Positions 2,493 to 52,046 of a stretch of 64,000 nt of DNA are shown here, piece by piece. Location of the stretch: the IMG/VR virus record IMGVR_UViG_3300020473_000024, positions 21,012 to 85,011 of that record; one strand, 5' to 3'. Made by a program: the position numbers and the translations under genes. Every line of letters starts with the position of its first letter. Positions within the stretch are counted from its first letter, which is position 1. The stretch is from a virus. The notes under the pieces are model-generated. The model ran no database searches. It had not been told where the DNA came from and saw only the letters and a program-made list of their open reading frames with translations.

Positions 2493-3342
2493 TTAATGGC
2501 ACTGCGCCCAGTTGCGCCCCAGCTGGTAGCCAGCGGTGAGGTCAACACGTAAGTTATAGAACTTACCTCCTTCTTCGATAGACTTAACTGCTAACTCTCC
2601 AGCTCTGCTGTAGCCACACCACCAAACTCCGTTGGCGTGTCCGATATCACTAAACACCTTCCCTGTAGATTCCTCCATCTGAGCCTTCCACTCCTCAGCT
2701 TCTTCCTCAGACTTGAATGACTTAATCTTAACGTTACGGGTGTGCTCTTCCATCTGACTTTCATCATGGTAAAATATGATAGCCTCAGCTTCAAGGTTTT
2801 CATCTCTCACCCAACGATCCCAGTAGACAGCGGCACGTTTCATACAGATAACGCCAGCTGATTGGAATAAAGTATTTACTAGGCTGTGTCTAGAACGAGC
2901 CATAAGCTTTCTTCCATCAACACCCACTATAAACTTCTTATCGTTGTCTGTCCAGTGTTTTTCTAATGCTTTCTTTAAAAGAGCAAGAGGCTTAGAAGCT
3001 TCCCAAAATGCGTTGAATACACGTTGAGCATGATCCAAACTCCATCCCATTTGTTTAGCAATCTTAGGTGGTTGAGCACCATAAGAGGAGCTATACTTTA
3101 ATACTTTAGCACTATCCCGATCCACCCCCATTTTTTCAGCATTAACAGAATGTATGTCGTGTGGCTTAGGAGATACCAGTGCTTTGGCATACTCCTTCCC
3201 GTTGTAAGGAAGACAATAGTGAGCCTCTACACGAGCTTCCAAACCATCAGCATCACAACCTATCTGAACACTACCTTTTGGAACACAGAACATGCTCCTC
3301 ATAGGCTCTCCATACAAACTCGTAACACGGGGGATATTTGCA
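2493..3342 (-). CDS. DNA polymerase family A, exon 2 (polymerase domain)
   Basis: Motifs DADGLEAR (A), AKVLKYSSSYG (B), YHDE (C); frame extends to ANIPRVTSLYGEPMR at the 3' splice site. Confidence 0.92.
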
Positions 3343-39112: not shown

Positions 39113-39718
39113 TCAACTATTATTTTCTTTTAATTCCTCAGAATCAGATTCTTCTAAGGAGTTCAGCTTATTACGCTTCTCAAGCCTTTCAACGATTTCC
39201 TCAGCGTCCATCCACATATCATGTCCATCTAACACTTTGTCAATCTCTTCTAGTGTTAAAAAGTTATGGTAGTAGTCAAGGTAGCATTTACGTAAGTGTT
39301 TACGAGAGAAGTCTACTTGTTTATTTAGTTTAGCGCTACTATCTAAGACTCCATAAGTGCTCTCATGTATCATAAGAGAGCTATTAGGGGCTATAACATG
39401 CTGATCTGCCTGTAAGAATAAAGCCCCTGCCGCAGAATAAGCATTACCTTCTAAATATCCTACTGTGGTTGCCTCTGTACCCCGTATGTTATTAATTAAT
39501 TGGATAAGAGTATCTAAACGACCTCCTCCAGAGTTGATGTGCATCTTAATAACATCGTTAGGGGTGGCATTTCGATAAATAGTGAAGTCTTCTCTGTATT
39601 CAGAAGGACTTCCTATATCCCCGTCATACTCAACACTGTAAAGGAAAGCATAAGGCGTTTTATTGATTCTTTTAGCCTCTTGTACGCCTAAGGATAAAAT
39701 ATCCTCCAATTCTTCCAT
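39113..39718 (-). CDS. clpP: ClpP-like protease subunit
   Basis: INSGGG, AYSAA (catalytic Ser), LMIH, DMW. Confidence 0.8.
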   Translation of the reverse strand: MEELEDILSLGVQEAKRINKTPYAFLYSVEYDGDIGSPSEYREDFTIYRNATPNDVIKMHINSGGGRLDTLIQLINNIRGTEATTVGYLEGNAYSAAGALFLQADQHVIAPNSSLMIHESTYGVLDSSAKLNKQVDFSRKHLRKCYLDYYHNFLTLEEIDKVLDGHDMWMDAEEIVERLEKRNKLNSLEESDSEELKENNS

Positions 39719-41506: not shown

Positions 41507-42916
41507 TTAAACTAAAAATACTGGATCATACCGAGAATCTAGAACAGTTTCGTACATGATATCCAAAGGACTCACCACCTTAGAAGATAACACTGATCTC
41601 ATAATAGATGGGCTAAATCCACTTACTAAAGCTGTACCATTATCTTGCTTCTGGACAGGGTAGTTCTCTTGTCGAGAGCAGACATTCCAGAAAATTAAGT
41701 CAGGTCTTTTATAACCAGCTTTCTCAAACATCTTATCAATAGTGGCGAAGTTAGTCATCCCACCACAAGCACAATCAAATTCCATGTCACTGATGATCAT
41801 AATCTTATTAGGAAGTTCACTTTGGTCTAAACCATGCTTTACAGCCGATTCCAGTACAAGTTGAAATACAGCGATCAAGTTTGTATTGAAACCCCAATCC
41901 GAGTTGTATAGAGATCGAAGTTTACTATATAGCTTATCTCCTTTAACATTCTGTAAAGAAGGTCTTTCAGAGAAAGTAATAAACTTATTGTTAAACTTAC
42001 CTTCGATACGTTCTGATAGATAAAGACCTAAGCTAACAGCAACATCCATAGCCGTTGTACTACCACTAACTTTGATGTGCATACTCCCAGAGGTGTCAAC
42101 CACAGGAAGAATGCTAAAACTCTCTCCTTCAAAGTAATCTGGAAGGGCTTCCCACTGTTCGTTCGCGGCTGTTGTATTACCACCTTCTCGCATACTTTTA
42201 ATAATATCGTAAGGATATACCGCCCCAGCGTTAATCTTAGCCTCACCTTTACTAAGCTTATCTAAGTAGCTTCTGTAACGATTCTCATCATTACGTAAGA
42301 AAGATTTTTGATATCGAGCCGAAGCTACTGAAGGTACATGCTCATAGTTGATCTTGTCAAACTCTTTAGCACACATTTTTTGTTCCACAGTATCGCTCAA
42401 GCTAGACAGCATCTTACGGTACTCTTTTGAGCGAAGCCCCATGTGTTTACGTAGCAGTACAGCATAATCTCGTTTAGCTGACTTCTCACGAGGACACCAT
42501 TTAGCGGCTAGCGCACTACCTTCTTTAAGCTTTGAGGCATAAAAAGAAAGCATAGCCTCTTCTAAATCCGTACCAACAAACGTAAACAGATTATCATAGC
42601 GAGTCAACTCAACAACCTTGTCAAAAAGTTCTGTAGTGTTAAGGTCTTCTGTCAACTCTGGTAGAAGTTTAACAAGGTCTTTAAAAATTTGTCTTTCACC
42701 AGCTCCTTGGCGCACATCACCAGCCCATAAAAGAATACGGGTGGCTAATCCTTTATCCTCATTCCAAGCTCGTACAAACTTGTGATCGATATTCTTACCG
42801 CGAGAAGCCCCGATAGTAGCGAATAGATCTAAATTAGCGTCTAAGCTCGAAGAATTAGTGATAGCCCCGTTTTCAGTACGAGACATACCTGTTTGCATAG
42901 CATCAAATAATTCCAT
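41507..42916 (-). CDS. TROVE/Ro60-like helical domain plus vWA protein (DUF2828-type), 469 aa
   Basis: TENGA, DVRQGAGER, LAAKWCPRE, VPSVA; MIDAS DTSGSM, T, SDMEFD, FWNV, SGFS; AGGAGG RBS before ATG 42916. Confidence 0.8.
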   Translation of the reverse strand: MELFDAMQTGMSRTENGAITNSSSLDANLDLFATIGASRGKNIDHKFVRAWNEDKGLATRILLWAGDVRQGAGERQIFKDLVKLLPELTEDLNTTELFDKVVELTRYDNLFTFVGTDLEEAMLSFYASKLKEGSALAAKWCPREKSAKRDYAVLLRKHMGLRSKEYRKMLSSLSDTVEQKMCAKEFDKINYEHVPSVASARYQKSFLRNDENRYRSYLDKLSKGEAKINAGAVYPYDIIKSMREGGNTTAANEQWEALPDYFEGESFSILPVVDTSGSMHIKVSGSTTAMDVAVSLGLYLSERIEGKFNNKFITFSERPSLQNVKGDKLYSKLRSLYNSDWGFNTNLIAVFQLVLESAVKHGLDQSELPNKIMIISDMEFDCACGGMTNFATIDKMFEKAGYKRPDLIFWNVCSRQENYPVQKQDNGTALVSGFSPSIMRSVLSSKVVSPLDIMYETVLDSRYDPVFLV

Positions 42917-42932
42917 AAATCCTCCTAAATTC

Positions 42933-42982
42933 TGAATGTGTTTTGCTTCCATATCGCGGATTTGTTTTGCTGTATACATTCA
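42933..42982 (-). ncRNA. UACAGCAA module 1 (stem-loop directly upstream of the vWA gene RBS)
   Basis: TGAATGT/ACATTCA stem, TACAGCAA, inner TCC-GCGATAT-GGA. Confidence 0.6.
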
Positions 42983-42994
42983 TCCAATTAAAAC

Positions 42995-43048
42995 AGTGTT
43001 GCTTTTTCTTTTTATCCCATAAAAGTATAAAGTTGCTGTAACAACACT
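42995..43048 (-). ncRNA. UACAGCAAC module 2
   Basis: AGTGTTGT/GCAACACT stem, TACAGCAAC, inner CTTTT-ATGGGAT-AAAAAG. Confidence 0.65.
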
Positions 43049-43054
43049 TCAGAC

Positions 43055-43113
43055 AGGATGCTATACATAGTTTGATTAAAAGTCAAATTGTGTAAAGTTG
43101 CTGTAAGCATCCT
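43055..43113 (-). ncRNA. UACAGCAAC module 3 with a tRNA-Lys(UUU)-like anticodon stem-loop
   Basis: AGGATGCT/AGCATCCT stem, TACAGCAAC, inner TTTGA-CTTTTAA-TCAAA. Confidence 0.7.
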
Positions 43114-43202
43114 CTCGGAAAAGCTGTTAAGCCTAACACTGAAAAGTTGAGGTGAACCACATCCCTCTTACCCCGTGGTAACATCGGGTTTTAAATATAT
43201 TG

Positions 43203-43317
43203 TTGAGGGGGCTGGATTCGAACCAGCGACCAACGGCTTATCATGCGAGTATAGTTGCTGTAATTATACTTAACAGTATAAATATTACGTTGCTCTACCA
43301 AACTGAGCTACCCCTCA
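43203..43317 (-). ncRNA. tRNA-Ile(GAT)-like RNA with 41-nt UACAGCAAC insert in the anticodon stem (module 4)
   Basis: TGAGGGG/CCCCTCA acceptor, GCTC-AGTTTGGTA-GAGC D arm, GCTGG-TTCGAAT-CCAGC T arm; ACG[insert 43287-43247]GC-ATGATAA-GCCGT; no encoded CCA. Confidence 0.8.
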
Positions 43318-43324
43318 AAAATAT

Positions 43325-43507
43325 ACCCTACACTAACGCAGTAGGCTCGGAATGTTTGGTAACAGAGCTAACCATTCTTAGCTCCGCATGGGTGTAGCTA
43401 TTAGGCTACTGCCGCCATGTGGTATGTACTATCGTTTGCATTTATAACGATTAGTCATAGTTGCTGTAGGGACGACGACCCCCACCGATGTCTTCTCAGA
43501 ACATCGA
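43325..43507 (-). ncRNA. Module 5: UACAGCAAC RNA carrying a tmRNA-like tag reading frame
   Basis: ATAAAT|GCA AAC GAT AGT ACA TAC CAC ATG GCG GCA GTA GCC TAA TAG; stops in hairpin GTAGC-CTAATA-GCTAC; downstream pseudoknot GGAGCTAA/TTAGCTCT plus GAATG/CATTC. Confidence 0.65.
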
Positions 43508-43512
43508 GAAAT

Positions 43513-43540
43513 ATACTAACATACTAAATTTATTTGTCAA
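43513..43540 (-). promoter_or_regulatory. Sigma70-type promoter driving the RNA array, vWA gene and tRNA cluster
   Basis: TTGACA-16 nt-TAGTAT with TG extension. Confidence 0.6.
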
Positions 43541-43560
43541 TACATTTTTCGATATTTTTA

Positions 43561-43713
43561 GAAGCTGGAGCTTCACTGAGATACAGGCTCTCCACTCCGT
43601 AACTTTCCTGTATTGCTTCATTAAACCCTATAAACACGCATTATAGGTTGCGGTAGGACTTTTATATCCCGACCCTGCGTATCGGTTTGAGGTATCCGCT
43701 AGTGGATAACTTC
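43561..43713 (-). ncRNA. Unknown structured RNA, about 150 nt
   Basis: Ends GAAGTT/AGCTTC pair; hairpins TATCC/GGATA, CCTATAA/TTATAGG, ATACAGG/CCTGTAT; no ORF; own promoter. Confidence 0.5.
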
Positions 43714-43722
43714 AATACATCT

Positions 43723-43750
43723 ATTTTACCACAACATCACTAGTTGTCAA
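43723..43750 (-). promoter_or_regulatory. Sigma70-type promoter
   Basis: TTGACA-16 nt-TAAAAT with TGTGG before -10. Confidence 0.7.
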
Positions 43751-43760
43751 CCACTTTTTG

Positions 43761-43952
43761 CTAAAAAGTTAAAGTTGCTTGCTTACCTTGTTTCCGAAGT
43801 CGATAGAGTCGCTTCATTTCTTTGTAAAACAAACGCTGACAGCTATCCAACTCTACTGTACCGTTAAGATCAGCTGTGTATTTAACAACAGGTTGTGTTT
43901 TGGTATAAGAGTGAGCTAATTTACGTAATTCACGCGCTTTCTTCCCGTTCAT
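43761..43952 (-). CDS. Small basic hypothetical protein
   Basis: MNGKKARELRK...; TAATG coupling. Confidence 0.6.
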   Translation of the reverse strand: MNGKKARELRKLAHSYTKTQPVVKYTADLNGTVELDSCQRLFYKEMKRLYRLRKQGKQATLTF

Positions 43953-50765: not shown

Positions 50766-52046
50766 ATGGCACATGAAGTACCAAGAATCTCTCGTGAAAT
50801 GGTTTTTAACACACCTCACCTGATCGCTCAAGATCAGTTTTCAAGTGTTATCAACTACCTCGAAGATCGTCCTAATGGTCTTATGACCAAGGAAGAACTT
50901 TCTCTTGCGAGAGACTTACGGGAAGAAAAGAAAAAGTTAAATCTAGGTGAGACTGACGTAGCCGTTATTGAGGTTAGCGGAGCACTTACTTATAGAGAGA
51001 CTCTATTTGGTGCGCTTTGTGGGATGTCTTCTTACGAAGGTATCCTATCTCAAATGAGAAAAGCGGCTAAAGAAGGTTATGAAGTAGTTGTTCTTAATGT
51101 AGATTCAGGTGGGGGACAGGCTTATCGAGCTTTTGAAACCGCACAAGATCTTCGTAGAATAGCTGATGAAAATAATATTAAGCTTATTGCTTATGTTGAT
51201 GGTATTTCCGCTTCTGCGGCATACGCACTTTCCGTCTCTGCTGATGAGATTATTATAAATCCTTATGCAGAAGTCGGGAGTATCGGGGTATTGACTAGGT
51301 TAGTTAACACCTCGGAGATGGAGAAAAAGGAAGGTATTGAGACTACTTATGTTTATGCTGGTGGTCAGAAAATTCCTTTTGACGCTGAGGGCAAATGGAC
51401 TGAGAGTTTCTTAAAAGACCTCCAGCAAAAGGTGGACAATCTCTACGCAGATTTTGTTAGCCACGTAGCTGAACTAAGAGGTGTTTCAGAGGAATCAGTA
51501 AGATCCACCGAAGCTAAGATGTTTGGTAGTAAGGAAGCTCTAGAACTTTCTCTAGCCGATAAAGTTATGGGTGGAGATGAGTTTGCTAATTACCTAGCTG
51601 ACTTAGTTAACGGAACAGAAGATACCAAGCCTATGAATACAACTGACACTACTAAAGAGGAACAAATGTCGGATAATACAGAAAAACCAAGCGTGGACAT
51701 GAGCGAATTTGAAAAACTTCAAGCTCAGATGGCGCAAATGGCAGAGCAAAATGAGGCTCTTGCCGCAGAACTTAATAAGAACAAACTAGGTAAAGTTGAA
51801 GAAGCTCTAGCTGAGTTCTCTTTTATCGAGAACGGTTCTGAATTAGCACAAATCCTTTTCGGAATGAAATCAGAAGACAAAGACGTTGTAATGAGTGTTT
51901 TACAAAAAGCACAGACAGCTCTAGAAGCTACTACAACTGAGTCTCTCACCACTGATGAAGAGCCTGAAGAGCCTTTAAGCGTAAAAGCAGGAAGTAAAGA
52001 AGCTACTCGCGCTTACCTTGAACAGTTAACAAATAAAGCTAAGTAA
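50766..52046 (+). CDS. S49 prohead protease with C-terminal scaffold region
   Basis: DSGGG, SASAAY, VGSIGV, GGQK; acidic coiled-coil C-terminus. Confidence 0.88.
   Translation: MAHEVPRISREMVFNTPHLIAQDQFSSVINYLEDRPNGLMTKEELSLARDLREEKKKLNLGETDVAVIEVSGALTYRETLFGALCGMSSYEGILSQMRKAAKEGYEVVVLNVDSGGGQAYRAFETAQDLRRIADENNIKLIAYVDGISASAAYALSVSADEIIINPYAEVGSIGVLTRLVNTSEMEKKEGIETTYVYAGGQKIPFDAEGKWTESFLKDLQQKVDNLYADFVSHVAELRGVSEESVRSTEAKMFGSKEALELSLADKVMGGDEFANYLADLVNGTEDTKPMNTTDTTKEEQMSDNTEKPSVDMSEFEKLQAQMAQMAEQNEALAAELNKNKLGKVEEALAEFSFIENGSELAQILFGMKSEDKDVVMSVLQKAQTALEATTTESLTTDEEPEEPLSVKAGSKEATRAYLEQLTNKAK

What the first reader, a model, noticed from the sequence alone, without database searches (positions are those of the whole stretch)
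43325..43485. tmRNA-like tag reading frame ANDSTYHMAAVA** without a tRNA-like domain, fused to the UACAGCAAC handle
Seen: ATAAAT|GCA AAC GAT AGT ACA TAC CAC ATG GCG GCA GTA GCC TAA TAG (43439-43398). The frame has an upstream stop and no start codon before GCA. The stops sit in hairpin GTAGC-CTAATA-GCTAC, followed by a potential H-type pseudoknot. The resume region forms the loop of a long hairpin (ATCGTT-ATAAATGCA-AACGAT). Known: this matches the tmRNA mRNA-like domain (AUAAAU/AUAACU-type resume context, tag ANDENYALAA in gammaproteobacteria, stops in helix 5, pk2 downstream). I find no alanyl-accepting TLD with G3.U70 nearby. Inference: a stand-alone tag module acting in trans, a decoy for tmRNA-cleaving toxins or tmRNA-binding factors, or a repurposed tmRNA remnant. 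The phage also encodes a ClpP-like protease 4 kb away.
Basis: partly seen in the sequence, partly recalled or inferred. Interest (0 to 1): 0.88.

Follow-up and report, generated by a model that had tools for sequence, protein, structure and literature searches.

The report
Orphan tmRNA tag module in phage RNA
A marine phage makes a small RNA that carries the message part of a bacterial ribosome-rescue RNA (tmRNA) without its tRNA-like part, joined to a motif shared by neighbouring RNAs beside a Ro60-like protein gene, a combination I did not find described.

Summary
On the minus strand, 43439-43398 reads ANDSTYHMAAVA plus two stops. There is no start codon, and an in-frame UGA lies upstream.

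The 16 bases around the first codon match Rfam's permuted-tmRNA consensus 16 of 16. The stops sit in a helix-5-like hairpin. Real alphaproteobacterial tmRNAs carry near-identical tags, such as ANDNHRMAAVA and ANDNKYPMQAVA. A sequence model built from 11 real tmRNA message domains scores the window at 31 bits.

No tmRNA tRNA-like domain exists in the 85-kb phage genome. The adjacent tRNA-like gene is a tRNA-Ile(GAU) with a 41-nt insert.

The frame lies in a discrete RNA of about 190 nt (43505-43318). A sigma-70-like promoter sits upstream, and a 199-nt metatranscriptome contig has the same ends. Three population variants keep the peptide; the only two changes in the frame are synonymous.

The RNA opens with the hairpin-plus-ACAGCAAC platform shared by four neighbouring RNAs upstream of a DUF2828/vWA gene that resembles Ro60. 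Compensatory changes support the shared stem across 36 of 99 sources searched.

Best reading (0.45): a Y-RNA-like RNA whose cargo mimics the tmRNA message domain. Function is unproven. Rivals are a relic of a phage tmRNA, or a trans-acting coding piece.

The parts
43513..43540 (-). sigma-70-like promoter (TTGACA, 16 nt, TAGTAT, with a TG extension) for unit A
   Evidence: 10 of 12 hexamer matches. The -10 element ends 8 nt before the end of the RNA contig at 43505.
43318..43505 (-). Unit A: a discrete sRNA of about 190 nt that carries the handle and the tmRNA-like message domain
   Evidence: metatranscriptome run X5 holds a 199-nt contig covering 43310-43505 (depth 15.9); fold z-score -2.66. 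The 3' end is inferred from the 5' end of the tRNA-like gene at 43317.
43486..43506 (-). 5' closing hairpin (6 bp) with loop UCUGAGAAG. I read it as a circularly permuted form of the module stem plus its CUG tail.
   Evidence: The same CUGNNAAG loop occurs in the insert of the tRNA-like gene (43275-43270 region) and in the KVP40 pseudo-tRNAs. The permutation itself is my inference.
43466..43485 (-). Second hairpin (G-run paired with UCCCUAC) that takes in the first three bases of the handle
   Evidence: MFE. In variant X6, changes at 43483 and 43466 keep the pairing, and two 1-nt deletions (43477, 43473) fall in the loop.
43460..43468 (-). UACAGCAAC handle, copy 1
   Evidence: Variant X6 has U at 43466.
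43440..43445 (-). Resume context AUAAAU just before the first codon
   Evidence: identical to the Rfam tmRNA_permuted consensus. Unchanged in variants X3, X5 and X6.
43398..43439 (-). Tag frame ANDSTYHMAAVA followed by UAA UAG
   Evidence: Similar real tags. Only two changes in X6, both synonymous (43422, 43404).
43394..43409 (-). Helix-5-like hairpin holding the stops
   Evidence: aligned to the helix after the tag in Rfam RF00023. Partly present in the centroid fold.
43350..43391 (-). 7-bp hairpin (43384-43365) with possible pseudoknot partners at 43391-43388 or 43354-43350
   Evidence: The hairpin is in both the MFE and the centroid. The pseudoknot pairing is read only and was not tested.
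43318..43345 (-). Terminal 5-bp hairpin followed by a U-rich tail, directly before the tRNA-like gene
   Evidence: It does not meet the terminator criteria.
43203..43317 (-). tRNA-Ile(GAU)-like gene with a 41-nt handle module (43287-43247) in the 5' strand of the anticodon stem. It holds handle copy 2 (43262-43254), has A3-U70, and is not a tmRNA tRNA-like domain.
   Evidence: Rfam tRNA 49.2 bits. ARAGORN calls tRNA-Ile(gat) once the insert is removed in a script. A compensatory U-A to C-G change at 43280/43265 occurs in X6.
42930..43112 (-). Three small handle modules (43112-43052, 43047-42992, 42981-42930)
   Evidence: Model R1 scores them at 48.9, 47.2 and 25.9 bits.
41507..42916 (-). DUF2828 + DUF7788 (vWA) protein, 469 aa, a likely distant Ro60/TROVE relative and the presumed partner of the handle RNAs
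   Evidence: Pfam and PHROG phrog_850 'RNA-binding protein'. Top PDB profile hits are TROVE-domain proteins at E 0.012. Nearest other named Atlas clusters are TROVE + vWA_Ro60 (26 of 30).

Best explanation
The frame is the mRNA-like domain of an alphaproteobacterial-type tmRNA: resume context, proteolysis-type tag, and a double stop in a helix-5-like hairpin followed by a further hairpin. It is carried without any tmRNA tRNA-like domain inside a discrete early phage sRNA of about 190 nt (43505 to 43318, minus strand).

That sRNA begins with the same platform found in four neighbouring RNAs of the operon of a Ro60-like DUF2828/vWA protein: a closing hairpin plus a single-stranded (U)ACAGCAAC. 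I therefore read it as a Y-RNA-like RNA whose variable cargo is a mimic of the tmRNA message domain, probably descended from a phage-borne tmRNA. This parallels the YrlA Y RNAs, whose cargo mimics tRNA.

It cannot tag proteins by itself. It most likely presents the message domain to factors that recognise it, such as SmpB, protein S1, RNase R or a tmRNA-cutting nuclease. It would either titrate them or tether them to the Ro-like protein and the adjacent RNA-repair enzymes.

Shown: the sequence features, the similarity to real tmRNAs, presence as a discrete contig in an RNA library, conservation in close variants, and the covarying handle family. Inferred: binding by the DUF2828 protein, descent from a tmRNA, and the mimic or decoy action.
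For: Similarity to tmRNA:
- 16 of 16 identity to the Rfam permuted-tmRNA consensus around the resume codon, with the stops aligned to the helix after the tag.
- The site is the best tmRNA_permuted hit in the genome (15.9 bits, E 0.016).
- 31.0 bits against a sequence model of 11 real message domains.
- 80% identity over 49 nt to the tmRNA of an alphaproteobacterial MAG (E 3e-6 per genome).
- Real tags ANDNHRMAAVA, ANDNDRLAAVA, ANDNNRLAAVA and ANDNKYPMQAVA.

No tRNA-like domain:
- ARAGORN finds 0 tmRNA in the window and in the genome.
- RF00023 hits only tRNAs.
- The genome T-arm scan found 9 hairpins: 7 are T-arms of the tRNAs and of the tRNA-like gene, 1 is the anticodon arm of tRNA-Lys, and 1 is a weak orphan.
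- The neighbouring tRNA-like gene is tRNA-Ile(GAU) once its insert is removed.

Expression and conservation:
- A promoter lies at 43540-43513.
- An RNA-library contig covers 43310-43505.
- In X6 the frame shows only 2 changes, both synonymous, and the resume context is unchanged in 3 of 3 variants.

Handle family:
- 47 hits at E <= 0.01 in 36 of 99 sources, and 47 of 47 lie on the strand of the DUF2828 gene.
- 98.8% of cells are paired, and 5 of 6 pairs show changes on both sides.
- Cargo elsewhere includes permuted tRNA-like modules of the YrlA kind (L080, L093).

Context:
- Ro60-likeness of the protein.
- Complete tmRNAs lie beside the same gene in 2 of 147 related loci (L059, L084).
Against: - No experiment or co-variation links unit A to the DUF2828 protein.
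- Model R1 of the small modules does not hit unit A. Its membership rests on the 9-mer and on my reading of a permuted hairpin.
- Variant X6 changes the handle's C to U at 43466.
- No other orphan message domain turned up. In one search, 0 of the 97 DUF2828 loci searched had one at E < 1e-3; L059, which did score, is a complete tmRNA. In one search, a regex found 0 of 147 apart from L059. So the design is a singleton, and no relative more than about 4% diverged was available.
- Two synonymous changes are weak evidence (chance 0.04 for any change, 0.11 for transitions).
- The frame is no more conserved at the base level than the rest of unit A: 2 changes in 42 nt against 9 in 188 nt.
- The Rfam scores are far below the gathering score (15.9 and 11.6 bits against 47).
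- The RNA evidence is one assembled contig from one run, and DNA carry-over cannot be excluded.
- The Ro60 relationship rests on weak profile and language-model hits.
Confidence: 0.45

Rival explanations
1. It is a relic. An ancestor carried a complete tmRNA next to the handle-RNA array, as L059 and L084 do now. Rearrangement removed the tRNA-like domain and pseudoknot 1, and the remaining message domain is carried along in an RNA whose function lies elsewhere.
For: Complete tmRNAs lie beside the same gene in 2 of 147 loci. Only 21 nt separate the handle from the resume context, leaving no room for pseudoknot 1. The design is a singleton. The frame is no more conserved at the base level than the rest of the RNA.
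Against: The frame is intact, with a perfect 16-nt resume context, two stops and the hairpin after the tag. Both changes in X6 are synonymous. The element sits in a compact, promoter-driven RNA. A second phage family, the Ackermannviridae, keeps an orphan message-domain-like block as the most conserved part of a variable non-coding stretch (91 of 100 invariant columns; the tag is identical in 4 of 4).
Confidence: 0.2
2. It is a trans-acting coding piece. In a host with a two-piece tmRNA, the phage RNA pairs with the host acceptor piece, or is bridged by the Ro-like protein to the handle-bearing tRNA. It then supplies a different tag, possibly one read by the phage ClpP-like protease.
For: The tag and resume context are of the alphaproteobacterial two-piece type. 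Marine phages are reported to carry two-piece tmRNAs (PMC9004378, passages read). A 5' G-run lies 44 nt before the resume codon. A ClpP-like gene lies at 39113-39718.
Against: I saw no D-loop-like element, P2 strand or pseudoknot 1. The G-run is held in a local hairpin that the X5 and X6 changes preserve, while the would-be acceptor strand loses two bases in X6 and changes at 43483. The host is unknown, so pairing with its acceptor piece could not be tested.
Confidence: 0.1
3. It is a non-canonical one-piece tmRNA. The 5' UGGGGG (43484-43479) pairs with the 3' acceptor strand of the downstream tRNA-like gene (43210-43204). That would give a G3.U70 pair and an A73 discriminator, with the message domain between the two strands.
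For: This alternative pairing gives 6 of 7 pairs, including G.U at position 3 (read). The distance from the resume codon to the 3' end is 236 nt.
Against: The tRNA-like gene's own 5' strand pairs 7 of 7 and is part of a full cloverleaf (Rfam tRNA 49.2 bits; tRNA-Ile by ARAGORN). The G-to-A change at 43483 in X5 and X6 breaks pair 2 of the alternative stem while improving the local hairpin. The RNA contig ends at 43310, not at 43203.
Confidence: 0.04
4. It is a chance resemblance in the variable region of a structured phage RNA.
For: All curated Rfam scores are below the gathering score. My own model was trained on tmRNAs that were fetched with patterns taken from the window.
Against: About 1.5e-4 occurrences of the 16-mer are expected in the genome. 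The AND start, the MAAVA end and the double stop in a hairpin are shared with real tmRNAs. The regex control found only one other frame of this type in 147 loci on both strands, and that one was a true tmRNA.
Confidence: 0.06

Closest known systems
Coding piece of two-piece (permuted) tmRNA, Rfam RF04321, alphaproteobacterial type
   Same: Resume context, an Ala-Asn-Asp start, an ...AAVA end, stop(s) in the hairpin after the tag, and a hairpin or pseudoknot downstream.
   Different: It has no 5' acceptor strand that survives the variant data, and I saw no D-loop-like element, P2 or pseudoknot 1. No acceptor piece exists in the genome. It scores 15.9 bits against a gathering score of 47. It carries a 5' hairpin-plus-ACAGCAAC platform that tmRNAs lack.
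Bacterial and phage Y RNAs (YrlA, Rfam RF02553) bound by Ro60/Rsr (Chen et al. 2014, PMC4201824, passages read)
   Same: It is encoded on the same strand next to a Ro60-like gene. It is modular, with a protein-binding part plus a part that mimics a translation RNA. Sister loci carry permuted tRNA-like modules.
   Different: The protein is DUF2828/DUF7788, not a Pfam TROVE member. The handle is ACAGCAA plus a 6-bp stem plus a UG tail, not the motif described for YrlA. The cargo mimics the tmRNA message domain, not tRNA. The YrlA model scores only 15 bits on the neighbouring tRNA-like gene.
CDS-less (tRNA-like-domain-only) tmRNA of mycobacteriophage DS6A, reported to inhibit host tmRNA in E. coli (passage in PMC11915505)
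   Same: A phage carries only half of a tmRNA.
   Different: It is the mirror image. DS6A keeps the tRNA-like half and lacks the tag, whereas here the tag half is kept and the tRNA-like half is missing.
Complete phage-encoded two-piece tmRNAs (phage Melnitz and pelagimyophages, PMC9004378; L059 here)
   Same: A marine phage setting, an alphaproteobacterial-type tag, and a position downstream of an early-type promoter.
   Different: Those are complete and are called by ARAGORN (L059: 90.9 bits). This one is not.

Membership tests
tmRNA (RF00023 / RF04321) | tRNA-like domain: acceptor stem with G3.U70, a T-arm, and an alanine-accepting 3' end | tested here: not met
   ARAGORN calls no tmRNA in the window or the genome. 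RF00023 hits only tRNAs. The adjacent tRNA-like gene has A3-U70 and is tRNA-Ile(GAU). No usable orphan T-arm was found.
tmRNA (RF00023 / RF04321) | Resume context followed by a start-less tag frame that begins with an Ala codon and ends in hydrophobic residues | tested here: met
   Real tags of the same type appear.
tmRNA (RF00023 / RF04321) | Stop codon(s) within the helix after the tag (helix 5) | tested here: met
   Hairpin 43409-43394, aligned to that helix. It is supported by a fold prediction only.
tmRNA (RF00023 / RF04321) | Pseudoknot 1 and helix P2 between the 5' end and the resume codon | tested here: inconclusive
   Only 21 nt lie between the handle and the resume context. The one hairpin there is lost in X6. 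No formal pseudoknot search was run.
tmRNA (RF00023 / RF04321) | Score at or above the Rfam gathering score (47 bits) | tested here: not met
   11.6 bits (RF00023) and 15.9 bits (RF04321).
Y RNA / YrlA (RF02553) | Encoded beside, and on the strand of, a Ro60 (TROVE + vWA) gene | tested here: inconclusive
   Same strand and same operon. The protein is DUF2828 + DUF7788. TROVE likeness rests only on a PDB profile hit at E 0.012 and Atlas features at 0.92.
Y RNA / YrlA (RF02553) | Match to the YrlA covariance model, including its tRNA-like module | tested here: not met
   Unit A gets no YrlA hit. A 15-bit partial hit falls on the neighbouring tRNA-like gene (gathering score 69).
ACAGCAA-handle modules of DUF2828 loci (model R1, made here) | 6-bp closing stem, N(U)ACAGCAA just 3' of its 5' strand, and a UG tail after its 3' strand | tested here: inconclusive
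   R1 hits three small modules in the window but not unit A. Unit A has the 9-mer and a hairpin with a CUGNNAAG loop that I read as the permuted stem. An 18-nt hairpin is interposed between them.

The most novel reading that the evidence does not exclude
Unit A is a phage-supplied replacement coding piece. It takes over the host's trans-translation by assembling with a tRNA-like partner, so that stalled host or phage chains receive a phage-specified ANDSTYHMAAVA tag routed to the phage ClpP-like protease. The partner would be either the acceptor piece of a two-piece host tmRNA, or the handle-bearing tRNA held alongside it on the Ro60-like protein. Together with the conserved orphan message-domain block of Vi01-like phages, this would define a class of split tmRNAs in phages, assembled through a protein or through the host.
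Probability: 0.08. Interest if true: 0.95.

Novelty: new variant of a known kind. Interest (0 to 1): 0.72.

Why it matters
tmRNA is known as a whole molecule, as two pieces, or as a tag-less form that keeps only the tRNA-like half. That last form occurs in organelles and in phage DS6A. I found no description of a message-domain-only form, though my searches were aimed at phage tmRNAs and not at that question.

If the module is functional, phages can deploy half of the ribosome-rescue RNA as a mimic or as a re-programmed template. It would also extend the Y-RNA principle, in which a Ro-type protein pairs with an RNA that imitates a translation RNA, from tRNA mimicry to tmRNA mimicry. And it would give a testable handle on an uncharacterised protein family (DUF2828) that sits among phage RNA-repair genes.

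The parallel orphan block in Vi01-like phages of enterobacteria offers a tractable laboratory system.

Tried and rejected
**Close relatives.** A protein-based search with the DUF2828 protein gave 67 viral and 80 metagenome loci (80 of 156 were kept). All were about 39-51% identical, so none was close enough to test the frame. nhmmer with unit A against the 147 loci found nothing better than E 0.93, and that hit was coding sequence. blastn of 42900-43800 against the phage collection matched only the tRNA-like gene, in 32 records.

**Handle plus resume pattern in viral contigs.** ARAGORN called 38 of them tmRNAs, in which ACAGCAA happens to precede the resume codon. The rest looked like coding or chance matches and were not examined one by one. 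None showed the window's layout.

**Host search.** The window's message domain was searched in 401 genomes of the class and 201 of the order of MAG G001. Only G001 matched at E <= 0.001. In the order, 7 of 201 matched at E <= 0.01, and 6 of those matched only 18-23 nt around the resume context. No host was identified.

**Alternative acceptor pairing (UGGGGG with the tRNA-like 3' strand).** Considered and set aside because of the variant at 43483.

**A short frame inside the tRNA insert.** The frame GCA ACU AUA CUC GCA UGA UAA was considered as a mini-tag. I rejected it because the homologous KVP40 inserts have no such frame.

**Dictyostelium Class I RNA.** The small modules give sub-threshold hits only (24.7 and 21.0 bits). 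None of 20 loci reaches the gathering score. This is kept as a lead, not a finding.

**Sequencing runs.** Parts of the stretch without cover in the RNA run (43055-43305), the small-share runs X7-X14, and the absence of words in X15-X22 are not evidence of anything. No silent control stretch could be laid because the cap was one call.

**Supplements.** Supplementary files of papers were closed. The Melnitz paper's table of phage tmRNAs and the supplementary Y-RNA lists of Chen et al. 2014 may bear on novelty, and I did not see them.

**Recalled, not from any call.** That S1, SmpB and RNase R bind tmRNA, and that MazF-type toxins cut it.
Full report
**1. What is there**

Read on the minus strand, 43439-43398 is GCA AAC GAU AGU ACA UAC CAC AUG GCG GCA GUA GCC UAA UAG, which gives ANDSTYHMAAVA**. 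Upstream in frame lie AAU, AUA, GUU, AUC, CUA and then UGA (43457-43455). The frame therefore has no start codon and a stop before it.

The last tag codons, the stops and the following bases form a 5-bp hairpin (43409-43394). A 7-bp hairpin (43384-43365) follows. Its loop could pair with flanking bases. A 5-bp hairpin and a U-rich tail then run up to a tRNA-like gene that starts at 43317.

The 193-nt stretch folds better than all of 200 shuffles (z -2.66). No ORF of 30 aa or more covers the frame on this strand. ARAGORN sees 8 tRNAs and no tmRNA in the window.

**2. Is it tmRNA-like beyond chance?**

Curated models say weakly yes. RF00023 aligns 43446-43390 to its resume, tag and helix positions 86-140 (11.6 bits). 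RF04321 (permuted tmRNA) aligns 43459-43401 (15.9 bits). Both are far below the gathering score of 47.

Even so, across the whole 85-kb genome this site is the top RF04321 hit, with a per-genome E of 0.016. The 16 bases at 43445-43430 equal the model consensus at every position. About 1.5e-4 such matches are expected in the genome.

A degenerate pattern scan of 185,579 species genomes returned 16 stretches, 5 of them tmRNAs called by ARAGORN:
- Rickettsiaceae MAGs: ANDNHRMAAVA, ANDNDRLAAVA, ANDNNRLAAVA
- an alphaproteobacterial MAG: ANDNKYPMQAVA
- a gammaproteobacterial MAG: ANDSNRYAYAVA**

. The window's tag is an ordinary member of this class.

The alphaproteobacterial MAG's tmRNA is 80% identical to the window over 49 nt (E 3e-6 for that genome). 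A sequence-only model built from 11 real message domains, without the window, scores the window at 31.0 bits. In that search of 100 sources it came second only to a training sequence. The training set had been fetched with patterns derived from the window, so I treat that E-value as inflated and rely on the curated-model results.

As a crude control I applied a regex for AN[DE]-initiated frames of 7-30 residues ending in three A/L/V residues to 147 loci on both strands. It found 65 AN[DE] frames, of which 1 qualified, and that one was a true tmRNA.

**3. No tRNA-like domain**

- RF00023 over the genome hits only three tRNAs.
- ARAGORN finds no tmRNA in the genome.
- A scan for T-arm-like hairpins found 9. 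Seven are the T-arms of the tRNAs and of the tRNA-like gene. One is the anticodon arm of tRNA-Lys. One is a weak orphan at genome 9935-9951 with no acceptor-like continuation.
- No SmpB gene is present.

The tRNA-like gene (43317-43203; Rfam tRNA 49.2 bits) has A3-U70. Following a sibling note, I removed 43287-43247 in a script, and ARAGORN then called tRNA-Ile(GAU).

An alternative pairing of 43484-43479 with the 3' acceptor strand would create G3.U70. However, variants X5 and X6 change 43483 in a way that breaks that stem while improving a local hairpin.

**4. Transcription and population variants**

A promoter-like site (TTGACA, 16 nt, TAGTAT, with TG) lies at 43540-43513. A marine metatranscriptome run (X5) holds a 199-nt contig covering 43310-43505 at depth 15.9. 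A second contig over 42880-43050 has depth 3.85.

The contig's ends coincide with the predicted start and with the tRNA 5' end plus 7 nt. Contigs cannot prove ends or strand, and DNA carry-over is possible.

DNA contigs from other samples give three variants:
- X3 has 3 substitutions and 1 indel over 43367-43620.
- X6 has 12 substitutions and 5 indels over 43212-43620.

All three variants keep the peptide and the resume context. In X6 the frame carries two changes, UAC to UAU (43422) and GCC to GCU (43404), and both are synonymous. The chance of that is 0.04 for random changes and 0.11 for transitions.

The hairpin that displays the resume codon is disrupted in X6 by two substitutions and two insertions. 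What is kept is therefore sequence, not that structure.

**5. The setting: a handle-RNA array beside a Ro60-like gene**

UACAGCAAC occurs 4 times in the window, all on the minus strand within 43032-43468. A fifth copy, ending in A instead of C, lies at 42967-42975 (sibling note; module hit).

The gene that follows (true start 42916, preceded by AGGAGG) encodes a 469-aa protein with these features:
- DUF2828 + DUF7788, and PHROG 'RNA-binding protein'
- DUF7788 and DUF2828 in 36 of 36 aligned homologues, and VWA_2 in 13 of 36
- best PDB profile hits are two TROVE-domain proteins (E 0.012, over the vWA metal site)
- once its own families are excluded, 26 of the 30 nearest named Atlas clusters are TROVE + vWA_Ro60 (score 0.92)

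Around it lie PNKP, an RNA ligase, a ClpP-like protein, PhoH, an RlaP nucleotidyltransferase and two tRNA clusters.

In 147 related loci the small modules recur. Each has a 6-bp stem, then N(U)ACAGCAA, a variable loop, the 3' stem strand and a UG tail. My model R1 finds 47 at E <= 0.01 in 36 of 99 sources, all 47 on the gene's strand. Of the cells, 98.8% are paired. Five of 6 pairs show changes on both sides, and 0 of 500 shuffles reach the covariation score. That alignment was fitted to the model.

Cargo varies between loci. There are short A/U-rich loops, complex hairpins, and, in L080 and L093, permuted tRNA-like modules built like YrlA Y RNAs.

In the window and in KVP40-type vibriophages the platform is instead inserted into a tRNA. 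KVP40 also has a DUF2828 ORF. In the window's insert, X6 shows a U-A to C-G double change at 43280/43265, and X3 shows the G.U intermediate.

Unit A begins with a hairpin whose loop (CUGAGAAG) matches the CUGNNAAG loops of those inserts. A second hairpin follows, then the handle, then the message domain.

**6. Related phages with whole tmRNAs**

ARAGORN finds complete tmRNAs within 2-2.5 kb of the DUF2828 gene in 2 of 147 loci:
- L059: permuted, tag AANDAFYGETRLAA, RF04321 at 90.9 bits
- L084: standard, RF00023 at 87 bits

. A paper on phage Melnitz reports two-piece tmRNAs mostly in marine phages (PMC9004378, passages). Descent of unit A's cargo from such a gene is therefore plausible, but it is inferred.

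**7. Mechanism**

The best-supported reading is a Y-RNA-like RNA whose cargo imitates the tmRNA message domain. The Ro-like protein would bind the platform. The cargo would engage factors that recognise the message domain, either titrating them or bringing them to the repair enzymes.

A reported precedent for a half-tmRNA in a phage is the tag-less DS6A RNA, which inhibits host tmRNA (PMC11915505, passage). That case is the mirror image of this one.

I put this reading at 0.45. The rivals are:
- a relic (0.20)
- a trans-acting coding piece (0.10)
- chance (0.06)
- a cis non-canonical tmRNA (0.04)

The remainder is unassigned.

**8. Novelty**

Full-text searches found nothing on the following:
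- DUF2828 function: 5 papers mention it, all in plant or genome-survey contexts.
- An orphan message domain: the search on phage and two-piece tmRNA listed 12 papers, and tmRNA with Ackermannviridae listed 10 of 20. The two I opened cite tmRNA only through the ARAGORN reference.

I file the finding as a new variant of known kinds: part tmRNA, part Y-RNA-like RNA.

Noticed in passing
L288 (Salmonella phage Vi01) about 2996-3051; also L306, L307, L308 at 901-951: Ackermannviridae carry a conserved orphan block that looks like a tmRNA message domain. The tag ANDNTFLAVA* is identical in all 4 phages fetched. It lies in a variable, largely unannotated stretch before the tRNA cluster and is the most conserved 100 columns there (91 invariant). 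In Menlow the hairpin after the tag shows compensatory changes. ARAGORN calls no tmRNA, Rfam gives only 21.3 bits, and Vi01 has no DUF2828 gene. It is the best phage-collection match of the window's message domain (75-77% over 51-55 nt, 88 records).
   Followed up: partly
window 43112-43052 and 43047-42992 (minus strand): The small handle modules resemble Rfam RF01414, the Dictyostelium Class I RNAs. They share a 6-bp terminal stem starting with G, UUACAGCAA right after it, a CUG end, and a length of about 55-60 nt. The hits are sub-threshold (24.7 and 21.0 bits against a gathering score of 41.5), and none of 20 related loci reaches the threshold. The Class I paper (PMC7919456, passages) states that these RNAs are unique to dictyostelids. 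DUF2828 occurs in plants according to the papers listed. Whether dictyostelids have it was not tested.
   Followed up: partly
L001 (Vibrio phage KVP40) 700-812, 823-946, 2497-2612: The annotated 'tRNA-Pseudo-3/4/5' genes of KVP40 are tRNA-like genes. Each has an insert of about 40-50 nt in the anticodon arm holding a hairpin with a CUGAYAAG loop and a GCA-containing single strand. This is like the window's tRNA-Ile insert. KVP40 also encodes a 479-aa DUF2828 ORF about 8-12 kb away.
   Followed up: partly
L080 about 985-1120 and 1560-1700; L093 about 350-470: These are long handle RNAs whose cargo is a circularly permuted tRNA-like domain (T-arm, closed acceptor stem, D-arm) enclosed by the handle stem. 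This is the YrlA architecture.
   Followed up: no
window 43723-43750 and 43561-43713 (minus strand): A second, stronger promoter-like site (11 of 12 matches) lies upstream of another ORF-free stretch of about 150 nt. A sibling note flagged it as a separate ncRNA.
   Followed up: no
window 39113-39718 (minus strand): A 201-aa ClpP-like protein (Pfam CLP_protease, E 4.3e-10) lies among the RNA-repair genes. It is distinct from the S49 prohead-protease-like gene at 50766-52046.
   Followed up: no
L059 2139-2270: A handle RNA of about 125 nt is closed by GGAUCG/CGAUCC plus UG and carries complex hairpin cargo. It sits directly before a tRNA-Met, in a phage contig that also carries a complete permuted tmRNA 1.9 kb upstream.
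   Followed up: no
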